Shown here in pieces: positions 2,820 through 57,230 of a stretch of DNA of 64,000 nucleotides. The notes under the pieces were generated by a model. That model saw only the letters and a list, made by a program, of their open reading frames with translations, did no database searches and had not been told where the DNA came from. Made by a program: the position numbers and the translations under genes. Position 1 is the first letter of the stretch. Each line of letters opens with the position of its first letter. The stretch comes from Octopus sinensis (Eukaryota): positions 13,949,360 through 14,013,359 of the forward strand of contig NC_043019.1 of assembly GCF_006345805.1 (NCBI RefSeq), written 5' to 3'.

Positions 2820-3900
2820 CCTCCCCCTTTCGGAGAAGTGGCTGTGTGGTAACAAACTACGTTCGAAGATACTGTACTTGATATGTGCGGTAGTGCCTTG
2901 CCGGTCTATGGCCTACCTTCAACAAACCGGGAAGGCACAAACACTCTGTCTTCACATTTGCTACGTGAGACATGTTTTAATGTTGACGAGCTTGCCGAGT
3001 ACATAGCCGACAATGAGCCAAAGCTCCTTCCAGAACAGCAGTTCGCTTACAACTCCGTTGTTAATTCAGTCCGGGCCAAAGCTGGGGGGGGGGTTCCTGG
3101 ACGCTCCTGGGGGCACTGGGAAAACTTTTGTCAACAAATTAATATTGGCTGAGATTAGGCGAACACAAGGCATTGCCCTAGCTGTGCCATCATCTGGAAT
3201 TGCGGCTACTTTGTTGCCAGGCGGCAGGACAGCTCACTCCACTTTTAAGCTTCCGCTTGACTTAGCGAAGACTGAGACACCAACTTGCAACATCAGTAAC
3301 AGCTCCGATCAGGCAGAAGTCTTCAGACGATGCAAGCTTATCGTTTGGGATGAATGCACGATGGCCCATAGAGGTGCTCTTGAGGCACTAGATAGATCTC
3401 TCAGAGACATCAAACACTCTTCAGCTCCCATGTCAGGCATAACACTTCTTCTTTCAGGGTACTTCCGACAAACACTTCCCGTTATTCCCAAAGGGACTAG
3501 AGCTGATGCAGTAAGTGCGCGTCTTAAGTCATCCACATTGTGGCCACTGATGAAGACTCTCAAACTTCACACCAATATGCGTGCTCTCATATGCGACGTA
3601 ATATCACATCAGCAGCATTTTCTCACACCCTCCTTTCACTTGGAGAAGGCAAAATACCAGGGGATGAAAATGGTAATATTGCCATCGATTCCATTTGTAC
3701 CATTGTTAAAACGCCTTCTGATCTCAGAGATGCAGTGTTCCCAGATCTACAAGCTAATTATCAGAATATAGATTGGATTGACCAAAGGGCTATTCTGGCC
3801 CCGAGGAATAAAACTGTTCACCATATTAATGATGAAATGCAAAAACTCATTCCTGGGGATGTCTATGTATATAAGTCTATCGATACAACTCCTGAGTGTT
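2820..3900 (+). pseudogene. Helitron RepHel PIF1-family helicase fragment (frameshifted, truncated)
   Basis: FLDAPGGTGKTF (Walker A), SSGIAATLLPGGRTAHSTFKLP, LIVWDECTM (Walker B), G(D>Y)FRQTLPV and RAILAPRN motifs, spread over three frames with shifts near the G-run at ~3085 and at ~3590. Confidence 0.9.
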
Positions 3901-4633: not shown

Positions 4634-5743
4634 TCTGTATATATATACGGCAAGATGTGTGTGTGTGTGTGTACGTGATTGTAATTTATGCACATCCACA
4701 AATTAGCACGCATGTCGCTCAAATTTTAGGAGGACATTCGTCAACATCCTATCTGGATTTTGTCAACTTATGTTTTTCCCGAGGGCACCGCGGATAGCGG
4801 TAAAAATCTATTTTCAGCCATAACATTTAGCGGTAAAAATCTATTTTCAGCCAATCTTTTGACGGCGATCTAACAAAAAAAAAAAAAAGATAAAGAAAAG
4901 TGGAAGAAGAGAGGCAGAGAGTTTCACGGGGAAAGACAAAGTGAGAGAGGGAGAGAGAGTAAGTGACGACGTTCATAAAATATAAAATGTAAAATTTTTG
5001 TCTTTTCTTAAACACGAGATATAGTGTTCAAATTCAGGATGTTTTTGAAAGACACTATATTTTATAATCATAGTATATATACTTTCTCACACAACAATTA
5101 CACTATATTTATTTTAAATCATTTATTTATATTAAATCGTTCATCTTTCTCCCCCCCCTCTCTCTCACTCACATTACTTTGGGTGCGAAAGAGTTTTGTT
5201 TTTATTTTACGCCGAGTAAAAAAGTGTTTTGTTGACAATCCATTTATTTAACAATAAAGAAACAAAGAAGTGAGTAGCAATTTGTCAGTGAATTGCACAG
5301 TATAAATGGGTACAATTTCCGGGGCTTCCAACCACACCACTCCGATTCACGGACCCACAAAAGGTTTTGTAGCATATTAGTAGTGATTCACGCAAAAGAA
5401 AACGATTATTTCTTAGTGAAAATCGTGCGAGTGTTAATCTACAAATTTAACAACATTTTTCCATTCATTTCTGTTTATGAACATGTATGCATGGACAAAA
5501 CATGCAATAGGTGTACGTACATACATGTGTGTTCGTGTCTGTTGCCCATATATATTTATATTATATTATATTATATTATATTATATTATATTATATTATA
5601 TTATATATATATATAATATAACCAATTTCAACGGATTCTGCCCAAATTTGACGTCGATATTACTTAGTTTGGTTTGAAATAAAGAACTTGATTAGCTTAA
5701 TAATCGTAACTTAATCCCGGGCAAGGCCGGGTTATACTGCTAG
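4634..5743 (+). mobile_element. Non-autonomous Helitron (5' TC ... 3' hairpin + CTAG)
   Basis: a|TCTGTATATATATACGGCAAG start; CCCGG-gcaagg-CCGGG hairpin at 5716-5731 followed by CTAG|t at 5740-5744; the 5' part has an inverted copy at ~36000-36120. Confidence 0.7.
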
Positions 5744-7505: not shown

Positions 7506-8916
7506 ATATGTATTATGTATATATACATATTATCTTTAATCTTTTGTTTCAGTTATTAGACTGTGGCCATACTGGGGTACCGCCTTGAATTTTTAGTCGA
7601 ATGAATCGACCCCAGTATTTCATTTTCTTTGTTTAAGAAGTGGTACTTATTCTCTCGGTCTCTTTTGCCGAACCGCTAATTTACGGGGACACAAACACAC
7701 CTACACCAGTTGTAAAGTGGTGGTGAAGGGACAAACACACACACACACACACACATATATGTATACATATATACGACAGGCTTCTTTCAGTTTCCGTCTA
7801 CCAAATCCACTCACAAGGCTTTGGTCGGCCCGAGGCTATAGTAAAAGACACTTGCCCAAGGTACCACGCAGTGGGACTGAACCCGGAACCATGTGGTTGG
7901 GAACCAAGCTTCTTACCACACACACACGCCTTACGCTTGCGTATATCCACTTGTTTGGTACACTCGTCCACCCTCATTTCGTCACTCCGTACTGAGTGCC
8001 ACCCCGTTTACTCAGACATAAATCTCACTAAACACTTTTACCCAATCCTTCTTTCCCTAGATCTCTATGCCTCTGAAAACCGCTGTCTATCTACCTATTT
8101 CCTGAAACTTAACGTCTACCCTCATCACAGAGAGGCCCTGTAAAGGTCGTGAGTACTGCTCTCCTTTCCTGACTAACCCATAAAAAAAAAAGAAAGAAAG
8201 AAAGGAAGAAAGAAAGAAAACAAGACGGTCCGCTTTCGGGGTAAAATTGCACTCGAAAGTGCGAAAGCCCTAATTCTAAACCTGCTATTACTTTTCAGAT
8301 AACTCTAGGAGGTCCCTATTGTGTTAGGTAGTTGTGGGCACATGGAGAGCGCTCGTATCAAAAATGAATGGTAAATGCATTTTGAACCATCCCTAAAAGC
8401 ATTGAATTCTTGGGTCTGTAATCTTGGTTAATGATACTGCAAATGCTGCTAAACCAATTACAATCCCCTCCATCTCCCCCACTCTCTCCCTTTCTCTCAT
8501 AAAAAAATGTATGTGTATACACACACACACACACATACACATACATTTTATTCGTTTGCTTTATGTCAATCATTGGACTGTGGCTACGCTGAAGCACCGC
8601 TTTGAAGGAGTTAGCCAATGGAATTACTTCTGGCTCTTAGTTTAAGTACTTACTTTTATCGAAGACTTTTACCGAACCGCTAAGTTATATAACATGTATG
8701 TACTCATACACTCGCTCACACCTACGCACACGCGCGCGTACACTTCTAGTTTATTTTTTGCTTGTTTCAATCATTGGATTACAGCCGAGCTGGAGCACCG
8801 CTTCGACGGGGTTTAGTCAATGAAATTACTTCGTGTTCTTATTTTAAGTCTAGTACTTACTTCTAGCGATGTCTTTTACCGAACCGCTAAGTTACTCGAG
8901 GCTATAGTAGAAGATA

Positions 8917-9330
8917 AGGCGGCGAGCTGGCAGAAACGTTAGCGCACCGGGCGAAATGCTTAGCGGTATTTCGTCTGCCGTTACGGTCTGAGTTCAAATT
9001 CCGCCGAGGTCGACTTTGCCTTTCATCCTCTCGGGGTCGATAAATAAAGTACCAGTTTCGCACTGGGTCGATGTAATCGACTTAATCCCTTTGTCTGTCC
9101 TTGTTTGTCCCCTCTGTGTTTAGCCCCTTGTGGGTAGTAAAGAAATAGGTATTTCGTCTGCCGTTACGTTCTGAGTTCAAATTCCGCCGAGATCGACTTT
9201 GCCTTTCATCCTCTCGGGGTCGATAAATAAAGTACCAGTTTCGCACTGGGTCGATGTAATCGACTTAATCCCTTTGTCTGTCCTTGTTTGTCCTCTCTGT
9301 GTTTAGCCCCTTGTGGGTAGTAAAGAAATA
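8917..9330 (+). mobile_element. tRNA-derived SINE family B, head-to-tail dimer (183-bp unit) nested in a family A SINE
   Basis: Head GGCGGCGAGCTGGCAGAAACG...GAGTTCAAATTCC; 14-bp TSD TATAGTAGAAGATA at 8903-8916 and 9331-9344. Confidence 0.88.
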
Positions 9331-9931
9331 TATAGTAGAAGATACATACGCAAGATGCCACGCAGTGGGACTGAACCCGGAAGCATGTGGTTGGGAAGCA
9401 AGCTTCTTACCACACATCCGCGCCTCACTCCTGCATATATATACACTCGTTTGGTACACCCGTCCACCCTCATATCCATCCTAATCAAATCAACACATCA
9501 GTCAAACTGTGACACATGCACGCACAAGCACATAAACAACACACACATATGACAGGCTTCCACACAGTTTCCGTCTACCAAAATCATTCATAAATCATTG
9601 GTCTGATAGCGCTAAAGTAGAAGACACTTGCACTAGGGGTGCCGCGCAATAGGATTGAAACCGAAGCCTAGTGGTTGCGAATTTCGTCACCACATTGCAA
9701 GAACTCCACTGAGAATTGAAATTAATTATTTGTTTACAGTTCTTACAAATCCCTTTGCTTCCTCATGTTACCAATAAAGTTTTGATTTATGTAGGTTCTT
9801 CACTTTTTTTTTATTTTTAGTTTTAACCATTTAATTCCGACGCTTTTTTTTGTTTTTTTTTTTTAAGCAGAGAGACCTTCTTGACTCCTTCAACCTTGGC
9901 TAAGCGAAACAACCAAGATGCGAGGGAGAAG

Positions 9932-10620
9932 TAAAGAGAGAGAGAGAGAGAGAAAGAGAGAGATTGGGAGAGAATAGAGAGAGGAGGAAAAAGAAAGCGG
10001 AGGAAAAAGAAAGCGGAGGAAAAAGAGAGAGGAGGAAAGAGAGAGAGAGAAGAGACAGTAAGAGAGGAGGAGGAGACAGACAGAGGAGACAGGGAGAGAG
10101 GACTAGGAGGCAGACAGACAGAGAGAAGAGGAGGAGGCAGACAGAGAGAGAGAGGAGGAGACAGAGAGAAAGGAGAATCCAGAGAGGAGGAGAAGCCAGA
10201 CAGAAGGAGTAGGAGACAGACAGAGGAGAAGACAGACAGAGGAGGAGAAGACAGACAGAGGGAGTAGGAGACAGACAGAGGAGGAGAAGCCAGACAGAGG
10301 GAGTAGGAGACAGACAGAGGAGGAGAAGCCAGACAGAGGGAGTAGGAGACAGACAGAGGAGGAGAAGACAGACAGAGGAGGAGGAGACAAACAGTGGAGG
10401 GAGAGAGGAGAAAGACAGAGAGAGAGGAGGAGACACAGAGAGGAGGAAATACAGAGAAAGGAGAGAGAGGAGGAGGAGACAGAGAGAGGAGAAAGACAGA
10501 GAGAGGAAGAGGAGACAGAGAGAGGAAGAGGAGACAGAGAGAGGAGGAGGAAACAGAGAGAGGAAGAGGAGACAGAGAGAGGAGGGGATGAAACAGTGAG
10601 AGGGGGAGGAGACAAGAGAG
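9932..10620. repeat. Purine-strand (GA/GGA/GACA) low-complexity tract with a ~39-bp higher-order repeat
   Basis: GAGTAGGAGACAGACAGAGGAG recurs at ~10208, 10262, 10301 and 10340. Confidence 0.85.
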
Positions 10621-22096: not shown

Positions 22097-23300
22097 GGCA
22101 ACGAGCTGGCTGAATCGTTATCACGCCTGGCAAAACGCTTAGCGGCATTTCGTAAGTCGTTACGTCTAGGGTTCAAATTCCGCCCCGATCGACTGTGCCT
22201 TTCATCGTTTCAGGGTCGATAAATTAAGAACCAGTTGAGTACTGGGGTCCATGTGATCGACTGTCCACCTCCCAACAGAATACGGGCCTATAATAAAAAG
22301 GATTAATATTTCTTTATTGCCTACAGGGGGCTAAACAAAGAGAAGACAAACAATGACAGATAAAGAGATTAAGTCGATTATATGGATCCCAGTGCCTAAC
22401 TGGTACTTGTTTAATTGACCCTGAAAGGCAAAGTCGACCTCGGTATGTTATCTACCTCTTATTGTCTACCGAGTAGAAAAGATTATTATTATTACCATTC
22501 AAGGTGGCGAGCTGGCAGATTCGTTAGCGCACTGGACGAAATACTTAGCGGTATTTCGCCCGTCGCTACGTTCTGAGTTCAAATTCCGCCGAGGTCGACT
22601 TTGCCTTTCATCTTTTCGGGGTCTATAAAATATGTACCAGTTGAACAATGGGGTCGATGTAATCGAATCATCTCCCCCTCCCCAAATAACAGCCCCTGTG
22701 GCCAATCATGAAATCATTATTATTATTAAGGCGGTGAACTAGCAGAATCGTTATCACGCCAGGCATAATGTTTGGTGGCATTTCGTCGGTTTTAGGTTCT
22801 TAGTTCAAATTCCACCGAGGTCGACTTTGTCTCTCATCCTTTCGGGGTCGATAAAACAAATACACGTTGAGTACTTATTTCTTTACTGCCCACAAGGGGT
22901 CGAACATAGAAGGGACAAACAAGGACAGACAAACGGATTAAGTCGATTATATCGACCCCAGTGCGTAACTGGTACTTATTTAAACGACCCCGAAAGGATG
23001 AATGAAAGGCAAAGTCGACTCGGCGGAATTTGAACTCAGAACGTAGCCAGCAGAGAAATACCTATTTCTTTACTACCCACAGGGGCTAAACACAGATGGA
23101 CAAACAAGGACAGACATAGGTATTAAGTCGATTACATCGACCAGTGCGTAAGTAAATGGTACTTAATTTACGAAATACCTAAGCATTTCGACCGGCGTGC
23201 TAACGTTTCTGCCAGCTCGCTGCCCTATGCGTTGAGTACTGGGGTCGATGCAATCGACTTACTCCCGCCCCACAAAATCCAGGTCTTGTGCTTATAACAG
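22095..23300. mobile_element. SINE family B cluster including a minus-strand dimer (22876-23225) nested in a plus-strand copy
   Basis: TSD CGTTGAGTACT at 22865-22875 and 23230-23240; junction gaaatacc|tatttctttac at ~23063. Confidence 0.8.
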
Positions 23301-33929: not shown

Positions 33930-34384
33930 TCCATCCTCCCCACCAACGCCATATCAGGAAAATTTTTCTCATAACAAATCCCCTAACCCCTAATCTACGC
34001 CATCTTAAATGTATCTCTGGAAAATTTCATTGACAAATATGCATCTTTCTGAAATTTACAGAGAAACAAATTCGCTGGAGGTGACGCATATCTGTAGCTT
34101 ATGCCAAAATTATTATAAAATACACATAAATTAAATAAACATAACATGATCACTTGTTATATTTGAGCGACAGACATATTCTGCTATCAAAATATTGATA
34201 TTTAAAACAAAATTTATGTCGATCATCAAAAATGGCCGATTAAAGCTGATTTAAGCATGTTTTTATAATAATTTTTAATCAAATGTTTTTTTGTAAATAA
34301 TGCTTAAAATATTTATTTTAGAATACAAATTTCCTTGCGCTTTATTTATTATATATATTTGTTTTAGATATTAACGGCTCATAA

Positions 34385-35530
34385 TGCAGTGAGATGGCAG
34401 AAACGTTAGCACGCCGGGCGAAATGCGTAGCGGTATTTCGTCTACCGTTACGTTCTGAGTTCAAATTCCGCCGAGGTCGACTTCGCCTTTCATCCTTTCG
34501 GGGTCGATTAAATAAGTACCAGTTACGCACTGGGGTGAATGTACTCGACTTAATCCGTCTGTCTGTCCTTGTTTGTCTACTCTGTGTTTAGCCCCTTGTG
34601 GGTAGTAAAGAAATAGGTATTTCGTCTGCCGTTACGTTCTGAGTTCAAATTCTGCCGAGGTCGACTTTGCCTTTCATCCTTTCGGGGTCGATTAAATATG
34701 TACCAGTTACGCACTGGAGCCGATGTAATCGACTTAATCCGTCTGTCTGTCCTTGTTTGTCTCCTCTCTGTGTAGCCCCTTGTGGGTAGTAAATAAATAG
34801 GTATTTCGTCCGTCTTTACGTTTTGGTTTCAAATTCTATGGACGTCGACTTTACATTTCATTCTTTCGAGATCGATAAAATAAGTACCAGTTGAGCACTG
34901 GAGTCGATGTAATCGACTTATCAGTCTCCCGAATTTGCTGGCCTTGTGCCAAAATTTGAAGCCAATATTATTTTTGTGAATGTTAGGCAGCGAGCTGGCA
35001 GAATCGTTAGTACGCCGGGCGAAATGCCGGTCGACTTTGCCTTTCGGGGTTGATTAATTAAGTACCAGTTACGCACTGGGGTCGATGTAATCGACTTAAT
35101 CCGTTTGTCTGTCCTTGTTTGTCCCATCTGTGTTTAGCCCCTTGTGGGTAGTAAAGAAATAGGTATTTCGTCTGCCGCTACGTTCTGAGTTCAAATTCCG
35201 CCGAGGTCGACTTTGCCTTTCATCCTTTCGGGGTCGATTAAATAAGTACCAGTTACGCACTGGGGTCGATGTAATCGACTTAATCCGTTTCTCTGTCCTT
35301 GTTTCCCTTCTCTGTGTTTAGCCCCTTGTGGGTAGTAAAGAAATAGGTATTTCGTCTGTTTTTATGTTCTGAGTTCAAATTCCGCCGAGGTCGACTTCGC
35401 CTTTCACTCTTTCGAGGTCGGTAAATTAAGTACCAGTTACGCACTGGGGTCGATGTAATCGACTTAATCCGTTTGTCTGTCCTTGTTTGTCCCCTCTGTG
35501 TTTAACCCCTTGTGGGTAGTAAAGAAATGG
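34385..35530 (+). mobile_element. SINE family B multimer cluster (two arrays of three units, 184-bp period)
   Basis: Unit starts GGTATTTCG at 34432, 34616, 34800, 35162 and 35346; the third unit is older and carries an alternative tail. Confidence 0.88.
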
Positions 35531-35823
35531 GTAAAATGTTTTTACGTCTCACCTGAAAAGAAAGGCGGGGCTGGAGAGAAGGGGTCTGTCACAGAGTGTG
35601 CTTCAAAAACGATGGACACGTGTTGCACACATGTTGGGAGTGAAAGGCCCTTCGCAAGCATGTCATAACGGAAATGCAAGGTGGCGGTAAAAAGGGCAGG
35701 GTTCGTGGGGTCGGAGCAAATCTGTCTTCTTTTAACCTCATGCTGCCCTCATTGTTTGTTAATATCTTTTGTGCCCCATTCGATGTTATGTTTTTATAAA
35801 TTTTTAACCAACTCATTCGTTGT

Positions 35824-35981
35824 ATATGACCCCCAGATCATATTGCATATGACCCCCAGATCATATTGCATATGACCCCCAGATCATATTGTATATGACC
35901 CCCAGATCATATTGCATATGACCCCCAGATCATATTGCATATGACCCCCAGATCATATTGCATATGACCCCCAGATCATAT
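35824..35981. repeat. 23-bp minisatellite x7 (ATATGACCCCCAGATCATATTGC)
   Basis: Direct inspection; lies within the minus-strand Helitron-like copy ending ~36120. Confidence 0.9.
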
Positions 35982-37534: not shown

Positions 37535-37942
37535 GGTACCACTTGAGAACAGTGGTCCCGGTGCGCGCTAGTCATGACTAGTCGATCCTTACTTTGTGTT
37601 TTTGTGTTATTTTGTTTTAAAATTATTTACTTTGTGCTTTTGTGTTTTATTTAGTGTTTAACAAAAATTATTTACTTTGTGTAAAAAAAAAAATATTTAT
37701 TTTGTGTTTTATTTACTTTGCTAGGTAGTCATTGTAGGATCGACTAGTCACGACTAGCTAGCGCGGATGCACGAGTGCGCGCACCTGGACCACTGTTCTC
37801 AAGTGGTACCTATTTCTTTACTACCCACAAGGGGCTAAACATAGAGGGGACAAACAAGGACAGACATAGGTATTAAGTCGATTACATCGATCCCCAGTGC
37901 ATAACTGGTACTTAATTTATCGACTTGTTCTCAAGTGGTACC
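37535..37942. mobile_element. Merlin-like MITE, with a SINE B insertion that duplicated part of its TIR
   Basis: TIR GGTACCACTTGAGAACAGTGGTCC; 8-bp TSD AAAAGTTT at 37527-37534 and 37943-37950; related half-element at 38116-38285. Confidence 0.75.
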
Positions 37943-42543: not shown

Positions 42544-42760
42544 TATTTATTTACTACCCACAAGGGGCTAAACACAGAGGGGACAAACAGATTAAGTCGA
42601 TTATATCGACCCCAGTGCAAAACTGGTACTTAATTTATCGACCTCAAAAGGATGAAAGGCAAAGTCAACCTCGGCGGAATTTGGACTCAGAACATAACAG
42701 CAGACGAAATACAGCTACGCATTTCGCCCAGCATGCTATCGTTTCTGCCAGCTCACCGAC
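42544..42760 (-). mobile_element. SINE family B monomer (others at 55424-55650, 56960-57160, 37811-37925)
   Basis: TSD TCACTGGTGC(A/T)CTAC at 42528-42542 and 42761-42775. Confidence 0.85.
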
Positions 42761-43859
42761 TCACTGGTGCTCTACTTTGCAATCAGAAATACTTCTCTCC
42801 TCTGATCCCCATGTTGTAAATCATTGGCCAACCCCTAATGTTCTGCTTCTCTCCTTGCTAAATACTCCTGTTACTTAGGTTCTCTTTTAGCTACCTGGCA
42901 TAATTATTTGCTGCCCCCTTTCATCCAAGCGTATCTCTTTGCTTTTATTGCTATGACTACCTCACAGTTCTACCACTGCTTCCCCTTCAGTCTAGCTGGA
43001 AAAGCTTGCACCAGCCACAGATTATGTCTATAGCCCTCAGCAGGTTGTCTTATACAAACTTCCAGTTGTCCTCAATGCTCTCAATTTATCAACAAGCCAT
43101 TAGCATTACAAAACTCCAGAAGCCTTATTCTCCTCCTCTTTGCCTGAGCCAAAACCAAATCAATATTGATTTCCTTTTCTGGGACCTCCCAGTTATAAAT
43201 CTGAACTCACTAACCATTCCTGTTTAAACTGGCCATATCCAGCCCAAATATTCCACCTGTTTTGTGTTCTGTATGGTGAGATTTGGCCTCTCACACCTAC
43301 CCTGCAATGTCATTCTAAAAATAAACATTCACATCATCAAAATCTTGAAACTGTGAGATAATGCCTGATTAATTCAAAATAATGTGAATAAATGATATAG
43401 GCACAGGAGTGGCTGTGTGGTAAGTAGCTTGCTTACAAACCACATGGTTCCGGGTTCAGTCCCACTGCGTGGCACCTTGGGCAAGTGTCTTCTACTATAG
43501 TCTCAGGCCAACCAAAGCCTTGTGAGTGGATTTGGTAGACAGAAACTGAAAGAAGCCTGTTGTATATATGTATAATATATATGTATGTGTGTGTGTATAT
43601 GTTTGTGTGTCTGTGTTTGTCCCCCCAACATTGCTTGACAACTGATGCTGGTGTGTTTACATCCCCGTAACTTAGCGGTTCAGCAAAAGAGACCGATAGA
43701 ATAATTACTAGGCTTACAAAGAATAAGTCCTGGGGTTGATTTGCTCAATTAAAGGTGGTGCTCCAGCATGGCCACAGTCAAATGACTGAAACAAGTAAAA
43801 ATAAAAAAATAAATAAATAAGCATCACATGTGACAAAGGAATCTGAAAGCTAAAGAGTC

Positions 43860-45713: not shown

Positions 45714-45978
45714 GTGGAGGCGCATGGCCTAGTGGTTAGGGTGTCAGAATCATGATCATAAGATTGTGGTTTCGATCCCTGGACCGGGCGACGCGTTGTG
45801 TTCTTGAGCAAAACACTTCATTTCACGTTGCTCCAGTCCACTCAGCTGGCAAAAATGAGTAACGCTGCGATGGACTGGCGTCTTGTCCAACTGGGGAATA
45901 CATATGCCATAGAAACCGGGAAACTGGGCCCATGAGCCTGGCTAGGCTTTAAAAAAGGGCGCATTTATTTTTTATTTT
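45714..45978 (+). mobile_element. tRNA-derived SINE family C (second copy 1463-1710) inserted into a LINE RT fragment
   Basis: A-box TGGCCTAGTGG, B-box-like GGTTTCGATCC, V-domain-like CTGCGATGGACTGGCGTC; 13-bp TSD AATGAAGAAGATA at 45701-45713 and 45979-45991. Confidence 0.8.
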
Positions 45979-46049
45979 AATGAAGAAGATAAAGGCCTTT
46001 CGGATGGGGATCTTTTGCAGGTTGAGAGGGCTAAGCTGGAAAGACAGGG

Positions 46050-46320
46050 TAGCAAACATTGCTGTTCTAGAAAAGCTGAATGTGTCTTATCAAGTACAGC
46101 AAATAGCCACATCTCCTGGTCCCTTGTCGCTTCCTCAGTGAGGCTCAGCCCCCGAAGATCCTTTCTCACCACTTCAACCAGCATCTTAGGTTTACTCCTG
46201 CCACAGGTACCCTCCACAATTAGGGATCGGCACTTCATTATGCAGCTGTCCTCATCCATGCACATCACGTGGCCAAACCAGCTCAGTCTTCTCTCTTGCA
46301 CACAGCATCTGATGCCTCAA
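46050..46320 (-). pseudogene. RTE LINE C-terminal fragment (other LINE pieces at 45550-45713, 52230-52340, 63090-63690)
   Basis: RRLSWFGHVMCM...VEGTCGR.KPK...VVRKDL motif. Confidence 0.75.
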
Positions 46321-46604
46321 ATCCACACATACACATATACAAACATACATCATAACTTTTTAACTTCCACTTTTCTATCCTTGCATGGTTTGGGCAGAGT
46401 TTTTTTTTTTAGGGAGATTTTCCACAGCCTTAGGCACTTCCTGTCACCAACCCACCATTCCAAGCCCCTGTCACCAACATCCTTGGAAATTAGTGACACC
46501 GCTTGTATGACAGCGACACTCATTCACAACTATCACATGGTATCAAGACAAGGAGGCATAAGCATACACTCACACACATGTACATATATGCATACACACA
46601 TGTG

Positions 46605-46638
<34 letters not shown>

Positions 46639-46907
46639 GCTGTGTGGTAAGAAGCTTGTTTCCAAAATACATGGTTCCAGGTTCAGTCCCTTTGTGTGGG
46701 ACCTTGGGCAAGTGTCTTCTACTATACCCATGAGCTGATCAAGCTGAAAGAAGCCCATCATATATATATATATATATATATACCGGAGTAAGCACATAAA
46801 TGTGAAACAAGGTGGAAAAAAGAGTACTCAAATACCAGAGGTAGAGCAATATGCTTTATTTAAAAGCAGCTGTCATCGGACAGTTATGTTAAAATATTTT
46901 AACAAAA

Positions 46908-48081: not shown

Positions 48082-48175
48082 ACATACATACATACATACA
48101 TACATGTTCTTGGGGATCAGGGGGAGAGAGTTAGTAAAAGATAACCCTTCTGGCTTTTTTTATTTGTATTTTCAG

Positions 48176-49846
48176 ATAACTGGGTGGATAGAAATCTTTA
48201 CTCTGTGGCCTACAGCAAGAATGCTGAAAGCATCGATTCTGATGAATTGGAGGACTATGTTTATAGTCGATGGTATAGGAAAGTTCCAAAGCCAATTCTG
48301 AAAAAGGCCTCCGGCATTTTTATTAAAAGAGATCAGACAGCATGGAAGAACATGCCCAACAGAAAACATACGCCTTGGGTATTGCTAAAAAGCGACATGG
48401 TTAGACACAATGGTGATGACGATGATGATAGTTATATGCGAGATGGTTCAAGCGACAATGATGAGGATGATGTGTCAGGGGAAGAGGAGGAGGAAGAAGA
48501 AGATTCGATGTATGATCGCAGCGGCAATAGAAAAGATGTTAACAGCCATCATAATGATGATGATATACAAAGCTATTATCTTCTGCGTGAAAAGATCTAT
48601 AAAGACATTGATAACCTAGCTCACAAATGTTCGTTGCCGTTGAAAACGAGGTGTCTTTCGACCGTGTTTTACCATGTTTTCAAAAACCTCATGAAGAACA
48701 AGAATATGGAAAATATATTTAAAAGTAAGGAACAGAATGTGCTTATGCATCAAAGTTTGTCTCCTTCTAAATCCTTGCACCAACTTCTAGAAGATGTTTT
48801 TTTAAAGAAATTCGGTTTTCTTCCCCATTCATCAGGAGTTCAAAATCAAAACTTTTCCGACGAAGACAGAAATAAACTCTTGCTAAAGATTATTTCTGTA
48901 ATCCATGAAGATCATCACACTGACACCTCTAAAAACCTCTCGACCAATCCGAATGCTGCTGACCTTCATAAGCAAACTGAGGACAAAAGCACAAATGGAG
49001 GGTCTAAACAATCACTCATCCCATCCTCCTCTGAAGCTTCAATGGAAGAACCTCAAATTTTAATTCACAAACCAATGCAGAGCAAATGGAAAAGGGTCAA
49101 ACCTGTTTCACGTTCTGAATGGAAACGTCCTGAGATTAAAATTTCATTTGATGGGAATGAACTGAATATGAATAAAGATACATATTTGGGCCTTGAATAT
49201 TTCTACAAACTTATTGGTATACTGAATGATCTCAAAATCAATTTTACATATTCTCCTCAAAGAAAAGCTATATTTGTAAATCCTCAAAGCTTACTTGCAG
49301 CCGAAATGCAGAGGAATTTTTTGAATATTCAGAATTTAGGTTGGCAAAAAAGAAAACCGTTTAAAGTTCAAATTGATTTCCATAAAGACACCGCCAACAA
49401 CTCACAAATAATTTTAAAGACGGGTAAAAATTCCAAAAATGACAGCGATAGTTCTGAAATAAAAATTGAATTTCTTCAGCCTGTGAAGAATGTAAGTGTG
49501 AAACCAACAGCAGTTAATGTCCAAAGCAAAACTTCGTTCACTCCACAGCCCGATACTATGACAACAACACAACCACCACCACACACAGAACAACCACCAC
49601 CACCACACACAGAACAACCACCACCACACACAGAAGAACCACCCCCACCAACAGAAGAACCACCCCCACCATCACCACCACTACCACAAACAACAACAAA
49701 CCATTCATCAATGGACGTGAACATTAATATCAATGTGAACGACAATTATATAAACAAGTCCCTGAAAGTAAGCAAAAAGAAAGTGATCAACATAACTCAT
49801 ATACACACTGATCCAAAGAAGGCTCATGGAGCTAAACATCCCACAG
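48176..49846 (+). CDS. Coding exon 2 (1671 nt): acidic D/E tract, unassigned ~330-aa region, Pro/Thr-rich HTEQPPP repeats
   Basis: tttttcag acceptor at 48175; coincides with the 601-aa ORF 48184..49989, the only long non-repetitive ORF in the window; ACA G|gtacgt donor in phase 1. Confidence 0.9.
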
Positions 49847-50384
49847 GTACGTATGATATCTTCTTAGTATTACTACTACTAACAGTCATTCCTAACATGG
49901 CCACAAGGCCTGAAACAAAGCCTGTGCGATTATGGGAGGGTATTTGTCAGATTGTCCTCCAGTACTTGACTGGTACTTTATCTCATTAAGCCTGGAGGGG
50001 GTACAAAGCAAAATTAACCTTGGCAGGACTTGGAAGATTCCAAAGAAAAATTGCAAACCATTTTCCTGGCGCTTTAATGCTATTTTTCAGTAGCATTAAT
50101 ATTGTTATTCTTTGCCTTGTGAGTTACTTGGTGACCCCCTCTAGTGCTGGTGTCATGTAAAAAGTATCCTGTTCACACTGTAAAGTGGTTGGTATTTGGA
50201 AGGGCACCCAACTGTAAAAAATCATGCCAAAACATACCTTACTTGTCCTGGTCCCACATAAAAGACACTGTCCTCCATGTAAGGTGGATGGGCCTAGGAA
50301 GGGCACCCAGCTGTAACAACCATACCAAAACATGTCTGGCAGTCATGACTGTGTTCTCCTGTTTGTGGGGCATTGTACAGAGTC

Positions 50385-55126: not shown

Positions 55127-55813
55127 TTGAATACGAAGTGCAGTTTTATTTAAATTGACATAAGCAGGCATTCTGTATGGCTAAGAATTGTACTAGGATG
55201 CAATTTGTTCCAGTAAAACCCTCAAGGTAGGGCCCAGTGACTGAACCAATAAATGATAAAAAATAACAAGGGTTAACTCAGTGGTTTTCATCTGCTTACA
55301 AAGAATAAGTCCTGGGGGCGATTTGCTCGACTAAAGGCAGTGCTCCAGCATGGCCACAGTCAAATGACTGAAACGAGTAAAAGAGTAGAGGATTTTTTTA
55401 AAACATTGAATGGCTGTATATGGTGGGCGAGCTGGCAGAATCGTTAGCATGCTGGGCGAAATGCTTAGCGATATTTCGTCTGCCGCTACGTTCTGAGTTC
55501 AAATTCCGCCGAGGTCGACTTTGCCTTTCATCCTTTCAGGGTCGATTAAATAAGTACCAGTTACGCACTGGGGTCAATATAATCGACTTAATCCGTTTGT
55601 CTGTCCTTGTTTGTCCTCTCTGTGTTTAGCCCCTTGTGGGTAGTAAAGAAAGATGTATATGGTGGGGGAGGTGTCAATCCAAGTAAAATAGGAACCAGGA
55701 GGACCCATAGCTAAAAAAAAATGGTTGAGAAAGAAACACTGAGTTAAATAGTTACCATTTTATTCATCTTACACAATTTCAATTGTCTGTTCAATGTTTT
55801 TTTCTTTTTATAG

Positions 55814-56924: not shown

Positions 56925-57230
56925 TTGTAGTTGAAATTTTGCAGTTATTGCTATTTCATCTTTCTTTACTATCCACAAGGGCTAAACACAGAGAGGACGA
57001 ACAAGGACAGACAAACGGATTAAGTCGATTACATCGATCCCCAGTGCATAACTGGTACTTATTTAATTGACCCTGAAAGGATGAAAGGCAAAGTCGACCT
57101 TGGCGGAATTTGAACTCAGAACGTAGCGGCAGACGAAATACCTATTTCTTTACTACCCACTTAATTCAGTGACTTCCCTCTTTCCCTCTACATTTTCTTC
57201 TGTTTGACATTTTTTTTTTTTTTTTATTAG

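What the first reader, a model, noticed from the sequence alone, without database searches (positions are those of the whole stretch)
8917..9330. SINE that propagates as fixed-junction multimers: possible circular or concatemeric RNA template
Seen: family B forms head-to-tail 183-184-bp units whose junction is always ...AAATA|GGTATTTC, at independent loci (9148, ~23063, 34616, 34800, 35162, 35346, ~57143). The junction falls in the 6-nt loop of a 10-bp hairpin (GGCGAAATGC-ttagcg-GTATTTCGTC) in the tRNA-like head, between the A and B boxes. At 8917-9330 both units share variants absent from other copies (cctctcgggg, agtttcgcac, ctgggtcg, atccctttg) and one TSD brackets the dimer. At 56960-57160 a truncated copy starts inside the previous unit's tail. 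These units have no TTTT Pol III terminator. Inference: insertions were copied from one multimeric or circular RNA (retrozyme-like behaviour without an evident ribozyme), e.g. loop cleavage plus RtcB-type ligation, or read-through of self-nested copies.
Basis: partly seen in the sequence, partly recalled or inferred. Interest (0 to 1): 0.72.

Follow-up and report, generated by a model that had tools for sequence, protein, structure and literature searches.

The report
Self-targeting SINE, not circular RNA
This short jumping element forms head-to-tail chains with one main joint at tens of thousands of places, and a related long jumping gene lands at exactly that base inside the short element's own head, so the chains likely start when copies are inserted into older copies, not from a circular RNA.

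Summary
The arrays and joint are real: 27,479 exact AAATA|GGTATTTC joints genome-wide. The joint is preferred, not invariant (3,106 joints at head nt 15). The 8917 variants mark a young subfamily, with 98-99% units elsewhere. A circular template is not supported: 84 of 107 multimers begin with a head that lies outside the repeat unit, dimers are mostly heterogeneous (9.4% within, 10.4% between arrays), and no ribozyme was found. An L1/Tx1-type LINE whose 3' end resembles the SINE tail sits at the same base of SINE heads: 124 of 136 exact ends, with ~16-bp TSDs, LINE copies 0.3% apart and host SINEs 8.7% apart. The joint is therefore a retrotransposon target site in the SINE's own head. Multimers are likely seeded by self-insertion, copied as linear read-through RNAs, and expanded by DNA recombination. 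SINE tail haplotype predicts the first target bases (GGTA versus AGAA; replicated blind), hinting at flank-guided priming. The exact SINE partner was not found. The scan noted this system before on other DNA of this genome.

The parts
8903..8916 (+). 5' target-site duplication (14 bp, begins TAT), inside another SINE that lies on the minus strand
8918..8964 (+). 47-nt SINE head, present once per array; A-box-like stretch ~8928-8939 (box label recalled, not from a tool); nt 15 is the second insertion site
8950..8975 (+). head hairpin; insertion site (nt 47|48) at 8964|8965; positions 43 and 48 co-vary (T-G 73, G-C 36, other 5)
8965..9147 (+). unit 1 (SINE nt 48-end); B-box-like GTTCAAAT at 8992-8999 (label recalled); last ~60 nt resemble the 3' UTR ends of L1/Tx1-type LINEs
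9148..9330 (+). unit 2, 98.4% identical to unit 1; member of a young, mostly monomeric subfamily whose flanks begin TAT
9331..9344 (+). 3' target-site duplication
22872..23224 (-). heterogeneous dimer (d=0.11; first unit internally deleted), joint ~23063, TSD beginning AGTA read by eye
34391..34965 (+). head + two B units + family-A body starting at nt 48 (34800); the A body carries more rare variants than the B unit (0.138 vs 0.043)
34985..35529 (+). second array: head with internal deletion + three B units; flank begins GGTA
37811..37924 (-). 5'-truncated B monomer with 17-bp TSD beginning GGTA
42544..42761 (-). B monomer with TSD beginning (G)GTA
55426..55653 (+). B monomer with TSD beginning TGTA
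56959..57160 (-). 18-nt tail remnant + one unit, no head, no convincing TSD: truncated copy of a multimer RNA or later deletion

Best explanation
The fixed joint is the insertion site that an L1/Tx1-type LINE uses inside this SINE's own head, and the SINE, which carries a similar 3' tail, likely borrows such enzymes and inserts into older copies of itself, seeding headless multimers. Shown: a young LINE (intact copies encode ORF1 509 aa and ORF2 1133 aa) is inserted de novo at SINE nt 47|48 with a ~16-bp TSD. The SINE tail is similar to the 3' ends of this LINE and its relatives. SINE ends are exact (GAAATA|) with ~15-bp TSDs, and SINE joints fall on the same base. Inferred steps: (1) the SINE RNA is reverse-transcribed from GAAAUA at a nick before nt 48 (or nt 15) of a resident copy; (2) because its 5' part is homologous to the target's head, the cDNA usually joins seamlessly, so the duplication is hidden and the head appears once; (3) lacking a terminator, such loci give linear read-through RNAs that are retrotransposed whole or 5'-truncated, spreading the same joint; (4) long arrays grow and homogenise by unequal exchange or conversion. 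The 8917 dimer is most simply a young copy of, or a locally homogenised member of, a subfamily that has both monomers and nt-48 multimers.
For: LINE site: 30 of 30 fetched copies join SINE nt 48. 124 of 136 exact LINE ends are followed by SGTATTT. 20 of 20 copies read at the 5' side have the SINE head upstream, with the nt-48 base (G or C) the same on both sides in 20 of 20 and a duplication of >=13 bp in 17 of 20; truncated copy L123 shows the same. LINE copies differ by 0.3%, their host SINE bodies by 8.7% (35 loci). Near-identical LINEs sit in both G and C heads (p=0.48 for association), so the hosts pre-existed. Tail similarity. SINE: 42 of 91 terminal ends have a TSD >=12 bp starting at the tail end, median 15.5 bp. 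A B trimer sits at nt 15 of an old A copy with a visible TSD (L072+ 6970). In 39 B..A composites the downstream A body carries more rare variants (0.078 vs 0.048, p=3e-4). In 26 B-B dimers the downstream unit carries more (0.032 vs 0.024, p=0.007) and subtypes do not pair (Mantel r=0.06, p=0.20). Arrays of >=4 units are homogeneous and mosaic (47 of 66 nearest neighbours in own array; mosaics seen).
Against: The LINE found ends AAATT, not AAATA, and carries the tail base that in SINEs goes with nt 15, so it is probably a sister of the true partner. A search for a closer partner gave 1 hit, L206, which was not examined. SINE joints almost never use 48C heads (237 vs 27,479; 0 of 198 sampled), although 20 of 40 monomer heads are 48C and the LINE uses both. 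15 of 76 multimer heads are 48C above a G joint, which fits inheritance through multimer RNA better than fresh insertion. Direct traces of SINE self-insertion are few: one clear visible TSD among 184 arrays; only a weak hidden-TSD signal (0.853 vs 0.837, p=0.026, one of six windows, uncorrected); and head divergence did not track A-body divergence (rho -0.02, n=23). The 74 C1 stretches were chosen by an exact joint match, which biases unit-1 versus unit-2 comparisons; in the blind set the downstream B unit was C-type in only 2 of 8 dimers. The share of joints made anew versus inherited is unknown.
Confidence: 0.75

Rival explanations
1. One or a few ancient nested insertions made multimer master loci. 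All later joints are inherited by retrotransposition of read-through RNAs and by unequal exchange, and fresh SINE self-insertion is rare.
For: Joint base is almost always G despite many 48C heads. Headless truncated multimers with TSDs exist (L085+). A position-specific variant (113T) marks last units of one subfamily. Long arrays are mosaic.
Against: Downstream units are varied and often more mutated, including several different old A copies at nt 15. Subtypes of unit 1 and unit 2 do not pair. The same base is hit de novo by the LINE. This rival differs from the best reading only in proportion.
Confidence: 0.15
2. The reverse transcriptase stalls at the head hairpin (nt 48) and jumps to the 3' end of the same or a sibling linear RNA, iterating units during one insertion.
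For: Fits the 8917 dimer: near-identical units, one head, one intact TSD whose TAT start matches its subfamily while the inner joint is GGTA. Partial head duplications in front of full copies suggest template jumps (L064-, L074-; L227, L233). GAAATA is the reverse complement of TATTTC just inside the unit (sequence).
Against: Only 8 of 88 dimer units have their nearest relative in their own array. Some homogeneous dimers share rare variants over part of the unit only (L098-, L100-). It does not explain why a LINE with a different 5' end uses the same base with a TSD.
Confidence: 0.07
3. A circular 183-nt RNA, made by loop cleavage and ligation, is copied rolling-circle fashion.
For: Dominant joint at a hairpin loop; a few homogeneous arrays.
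Against: The head outside the unit starts 84 of 107 multimers and 3' ends are not permuted. Dimers are heterogeneous, with mixed joints and families. No ribozyme match. The joint equals a DNA target site.
Confidence: 0.03

Closest known systems
Tx1-Mar LINEs and SINEU of crocodilians; Tx1L in Tx1D; Keno, Kibi, Koshi (Kojima 2015, PMC4494074; passages and section 16 read)
   Same: Sequence-preferring Tx1-clade LINEs and SINEs share insertion sites inside another repeat; two preferred positions are used by different families; tandem SINE insertions occur.
   Different: There the target is a Mariner transposon and tandems keep a TSD between full copies. Here the target is the SINE's own head, so the passenger supplies the landing site and the units lose the head.
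Alu self-insertion hotspot at Alu position 133 (Levy, Schwartz and Ast, PMC2836564; abstract and passages read)
   Same: A SINE inserts in sense at one nucleotide of its own family, explained by endonuclease sites plus RNA-target pairing.
   Different: Alu uses the poly(A) linker and a non-specific L1; 15,759 cases are reported. Here there is no poly(A), the LINE is site-specific, and about half of sampled tails are joints.
SINE-derived tandem arrays: squamate sSats and jerboa Dip multimers (PMC10702118, passages); TSD1-(SINE)n-TSD1 arrays of the blood clam (PMC11481361, passages)
   Same: One head, head-truncated repeated units, one outer TSD; long arrays more uniform.
   Different: Those passages invoke unequal recombination and mention repeated insertion only in general; no site-specific LINE is given. 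Clam inner units are also 3'-truncated; here every unit has the full tail.
RTE-related SINEs whose TSD first base correlates with the RNA's 3' repeat (PMC6007223, abstract and passages)
   Same: Target start correlates with the RNA 3' end.
   Different: There it is a microsatellite tail with 1-2 bases of homology. Here no repeat tail exists and the correlation is with subfamily and the junction-like flank.
Metazoan non-LTR retrozymes (PMC7761336, passages)
   Same: 150-300-bp tandem units in animal genomes.
   Different: Defined by hammerhead ribozymes and circular RNAs; no ribozyme was found here and the arrays carry a head outside the unit.

Membership tests
non-LTR retrozyme | hammerhead or other self-cleaving ribozyme in each unit | tested here: not met
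   Rfam: 0 matches at E<=10 in 8800-9450; two weak non-ribozyme matches in 34300-35650
non-LTR retrozyme | insertions made only of the circular unit, units identical at insertion | tested here: not met
   84 of 107 multimers start with a head outside the unit; dimer units differ by a median 9.4%
non-LTR retrozyme | abundant circular RNA | not testable with these tools
   only assembled contigs, none on record as RNA
SINE with LINE-derived tail | short, non-coding, interspersed at high copy number, with TSDs | tested here: met
SINE with LINE-derived tail | 3' end shared with a LINE | tested here: met
   alignment to the L036 LINE end; a 23-nt identical stretch read by eye in the L057 relative; relatives ending AATAAAGAAAT(A/T)
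SINE with LINE-derived tail | tRNA-derived head with Pol III boxes | tested here: inconclusive
   ARAGORN 0 and Rfam 0; A- and B-box-like motifs judged from recalled consensus; 43/48 covariation supports a hairpin
SINE with LINE-derived tail | Pol III transcription and trans-mobilisation by the LINE | not testable with these tools
   needs assays
L1 group, Tx1 clade (the LINE) | ORF1 plus ORF2 with APE endonuclease, RT and C-terminal zinc motif, closest to L1 ORF2p | tested here: met
   Pfam PF03372, PF00078, PF13966; ORF1 PF00098; human L1 ORF2p E 2e-64 vs R2 1e-20; intact ORFs in L149 and L147
L1 group, Tx1 clade (the LINE) | sequence-specific insertion into a multicopy target with TSD | tested here: met
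L1 group, Tx1 clade (the LINE) | RT phylogeny inside the Tx1 clade | not tested
   no named Tx1 references were returned (one search hits are unnamed apart from two generic labels); the label Tx1 is my inference

The most novel reading that the evidence does not exclude
Heritable, RNA-guided target choice. Having no terminator or poly(A), each SINE RNA runs past GAAAUA into its own flank, and those bases pair with the nicked target, so daughters inherit the source's landing motif (GGTA, AGAA or TATA lineages). A lineage that once landed in the head at nt 48 then homes to its own family, in a loop with a LINE that targets the same base: a LINE-SINE pair in which the passenger manufactures the landing sites and turns into satellite-like arrays.
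Probability: 0.35. Interest if true: 0.75.

Novelty: new variant of a known kind. Interest (0 to 1): 0.55.

Why it matters
It gives a concrete route from a dispersed SINE to tandem arrays: a site-specific retrotransposon nick inside the SINE's own head. In known Tx1-SINE pairs the target is a third element; here the SINE appears to be both passenger and target, a feedback that could help explain its copy number and why about half of sampled tails are joints. Intact, very young LINE copies make target choice (endonuclease versus RNA pairing) directly testable. It also warns that fixed-joint multimers and joint-spanning RNA reads are not evidence for circular RNA.

Tried and rejected
RNA evidence: no RNA holder listed. 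Four guessed-RNA contig sets were laid; contigs of a repeat whose joint exists in DNA cannot show circles, strand or ends, so nothing was drawn from them.

Ribozyme and tRNA scans were blank.

RTE-like and other LINE fragments in the sample (L090, L095, L092, L056, L040; clade labels recalled) showed no B-like 3' end.

Search for a LINE with the exact B tail: 1 hit, not examined. The AGAA-targeting LINE relative was not found at nt 15 of this SINE (0 hits), so it is not shown to make the nt-15 joint.

Head-origin correlation in B..A composites was null and the hidden-TSD test weak. Association of LINE lineage with G or C target was null, against first-base RNA guidance for the LINE itself.

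My interim idea that the 8917 subfamily exists only as multimers was overturned: 21 of its 23 nearest outside loci are monomers.

Literature: six searches listed no paper on a self-targeting octopus SINE or Tx1. Repbase, Dfam, most subscription papers and all supplements were not seen and may describe these families.

Full report
Observation. The 8917 element is a 47-nt head, two 183-bp units 98.4% alike and a perfect 14-bp TSD. The genome (G000, 2.72 Gb; octopus-like, my inference) has 27,479 exact joints, control 0. The joint is not invariant: a nt-15 joint has 3,106 exact matches. In 304 kb not chosen for joints, 66 tails split into 30 at nt 48+-2, 4 at nt 15, 4 other and 28 terminal, with one 3'-truncated hit set aside. 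A blind 400 kb gave 29, 1, 8 and 24 of 62, with one dropped. Units 98-99% identical to unit 2 exist elsewhere (40 of 805 candidates scored), and 21 of the 23 nearest outside loci are monomers, 22 with flanks starting TAT and one TGT.

Sample. About 1.09 Mb was parsed: the window, 20 neighbouring stretches, 9 best hits, 74 C1 stretches centred on exact joints (a biased set), 4 stretches beside best hits and 2 around best hits. The 9 best-hit loci L002-L010 were left out of most counts.

Against a circle. 84 of 107 multimers start with the head, which is not part of the repeat unit; 6 that continue an upstream array were set aside. 3' ends stop at GAAATA, and 42 of 91 terminal ends have a TSD of >=12 bp starting there. 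Adjacent units in dimers differ by a median 0.094 (n=41) against 0.104 between arrays, and only 8 of 88 dimer units have their nearest relative in their own array. Arrays of four or more are homogeneous (47 of 66) and show mosaic tracts (read by eye; that output was cut). Arrays mix nt-48 and nt-15 joints and often end in a family-A body (output partly cut). Rfam gave no ribozyme. Retrozymes are defined by hammerheads and circles (PMC7761336, passages).

The LINE. In L036 a LINE 3' end similar to the SINE tail is joined to SINE nt 48. Copies L149 and L147 carry intact ORFs of 509 and 1133 aa with zinc knuckle, APE endonuclease, RT and zf-RVT domains, closest to human L1 ORF2p among solved structures. 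'Tx1' is my label, not tested by a tree. All 30 fetched copies join nt 48, and 124 of 136 exact ends are followed by SGTATTT. Twenty copies were read at the 5' side, two chosen because they missed that pattern. All 20 have head nt 1-47 upstream and the same nt-48 base on both sides, and 17 show a duplication of >=13 bp; the host SINE's own outer TSD is visible by eye in at least five. LINE ends differ by 0.3%, host bodies by 8.7% (35 loci), and near-identical LINEs occupy G and C heads alike. In several copies the 5' duplicate follows the family majority rather than the 3' copy's private bases (L142, L143, L147, L152), which suggests homologous 5' joining (inference). Relatives share the tail. 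One family ends AATAAAGAAAT(A/T) with varied flanks; another is followed in 9 of 12 loci by the head of a different SINE at (A)AGAAGC or AAGTAGC, a site where three B copies also sit.

The SINE's own behaviour. One tail base predicts what follows. T goes with nt-48 joints (177 of 179) and GG-starting flanks (20 of 22); C goes with nt-15 joints (13 of 15) and AG-starting flanks (15 of 17). The blind set agrees (28/28, 11/11, 1/1, 2/2). These first bases are in both TSD copies where a TSD was found. For T-type terminal ends 17 of 37 match the nt-48 sequence for >=3 bases, against a 1.2% background for GGT.

Evidence for SINE self-insertion: a trimer at nt 15 of an old A copy with a visible TSD (L072+), and more mutated downstream units with unpaired subtypes. 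Evidence for inheritance through multimer RNA: headless truncated multimers in one TSD (L085+); a last-unit marker in one subfamily; and G joints under 48C heads. 48C joints are 237 against 27,479, though half of monomer heads are 48C. Tests that failed or were weak: head-versus-A-body correlation and the hidden TSD.

Mechanism. Best reading (0.75): self-insertion at a LINE target site seeds the joint, read-through RNAs spread it, and DNA recombination enlarges long arrays. The LINE's site use is shown. The SINE's mobilisation by such a LINE, seamless joining and read-through transcription are inferred. The LINE found is probably a sister of the true partner (its end and tail base differ). Whether target choice comes from different partner endonucleases or from pairing of the RNA's read-through flank is open; the SINE data fit pairing, the LINE data do not require it. 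For 8917 itself I cannot separate copying of a homogeneous dimer, local conversion and a template jump.

Known systems. Closest is Tx1-Mar with SINEU (PMC4494074; passages and section 16), where the shared target is a Mariner. Alu has a self-insertion hotspot (PMC2836564; abstract and passages). SINE-derived arrays are described in squamates and a clam without a site-specific LINE (PMC10702118, PMC11481361; passages). TSD start tracks the RNA 3' end in RTE SINEs (PMC6007223; passages). An O. vulgaris repeat paper (PMC13282606; first third read) lists active L1-Tx1 and SINE families; that part says nothing on targeting. Six searches listed no description of this pair; repeat databases and supplements were not seen. 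My reading was noted before (notes); that call showed eight unreviewed or unchecked AI notes on other pieces of this genome with similar readings, which are not independent support.

Verdict. Observation partly confirmed; circular-RNA reading not supported; a new variant of a known kind; interest 0.55.

Noticed in passing
window 8903-9344; L219, L225: The young TAT-flank subfamily sits at the same site of another SINE (GAGGC|TATAGTAGAAGAC-like) in 3 of 24 loci examined.
   Followed up: partly
L194-L205; L002+ 749, L056- 5173, L101- 6205: A second L1/Tx1-type family is joined to the head of the other abundant SINE at (A)AGAAGCTTGC in 9 of 12 loci; three B copies use the same site.
   Followed up: partly
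L022+ ~4100, L086- 3393/3568, L014+ 2994, L029-: A family-A subtype ending GTAGAAAAGAAT also joins the next copy at head nt 15; LINE relatives at L031 and L022 end like family A and sit before (ATT)n.
   Followed up: no
L186-L193, L196/L200: LINE relatives whose 3' region continues into CAGACGACGAAATACG-like sequence, resembling the reverse complement of the SINE's nt-48 site.
   Followed up: no
L103+ 5232-5717; L105- 3143-3625: Full-length B copies in tandem separated by a TSD-like spacer, a second kind of multimer.
   Followed up: no
L064- 710, L074- 4579; L227, L233: Short duplications of the head in front of full copies, a possible sign of template jumping.
   Followed up: no
L002, L058, L078, L259, L266: Joint variant with an extra GAAATA before GGTATTT.
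   Followed up: no
L254- 8144 and 8523: Array units carrying a TTAGGG-like insert just after the joint.
   Followed up: no
window 3007-3768 +: 254-aa frame matching PIF1-like helicase (E 3e-53), perhaps a Helitron fragment (label recalled).
   Followed up: no
window 48145-49986 + and 45946-46647 +: Open frames of 614 and 234 aa without a Pfam match.
   Followed up: no
window 35820-35981 and 9935-10614: A 23-bp minisatellite (7 copies, 97%) and a purine-rich minisatellite tract.
   Followed up: no
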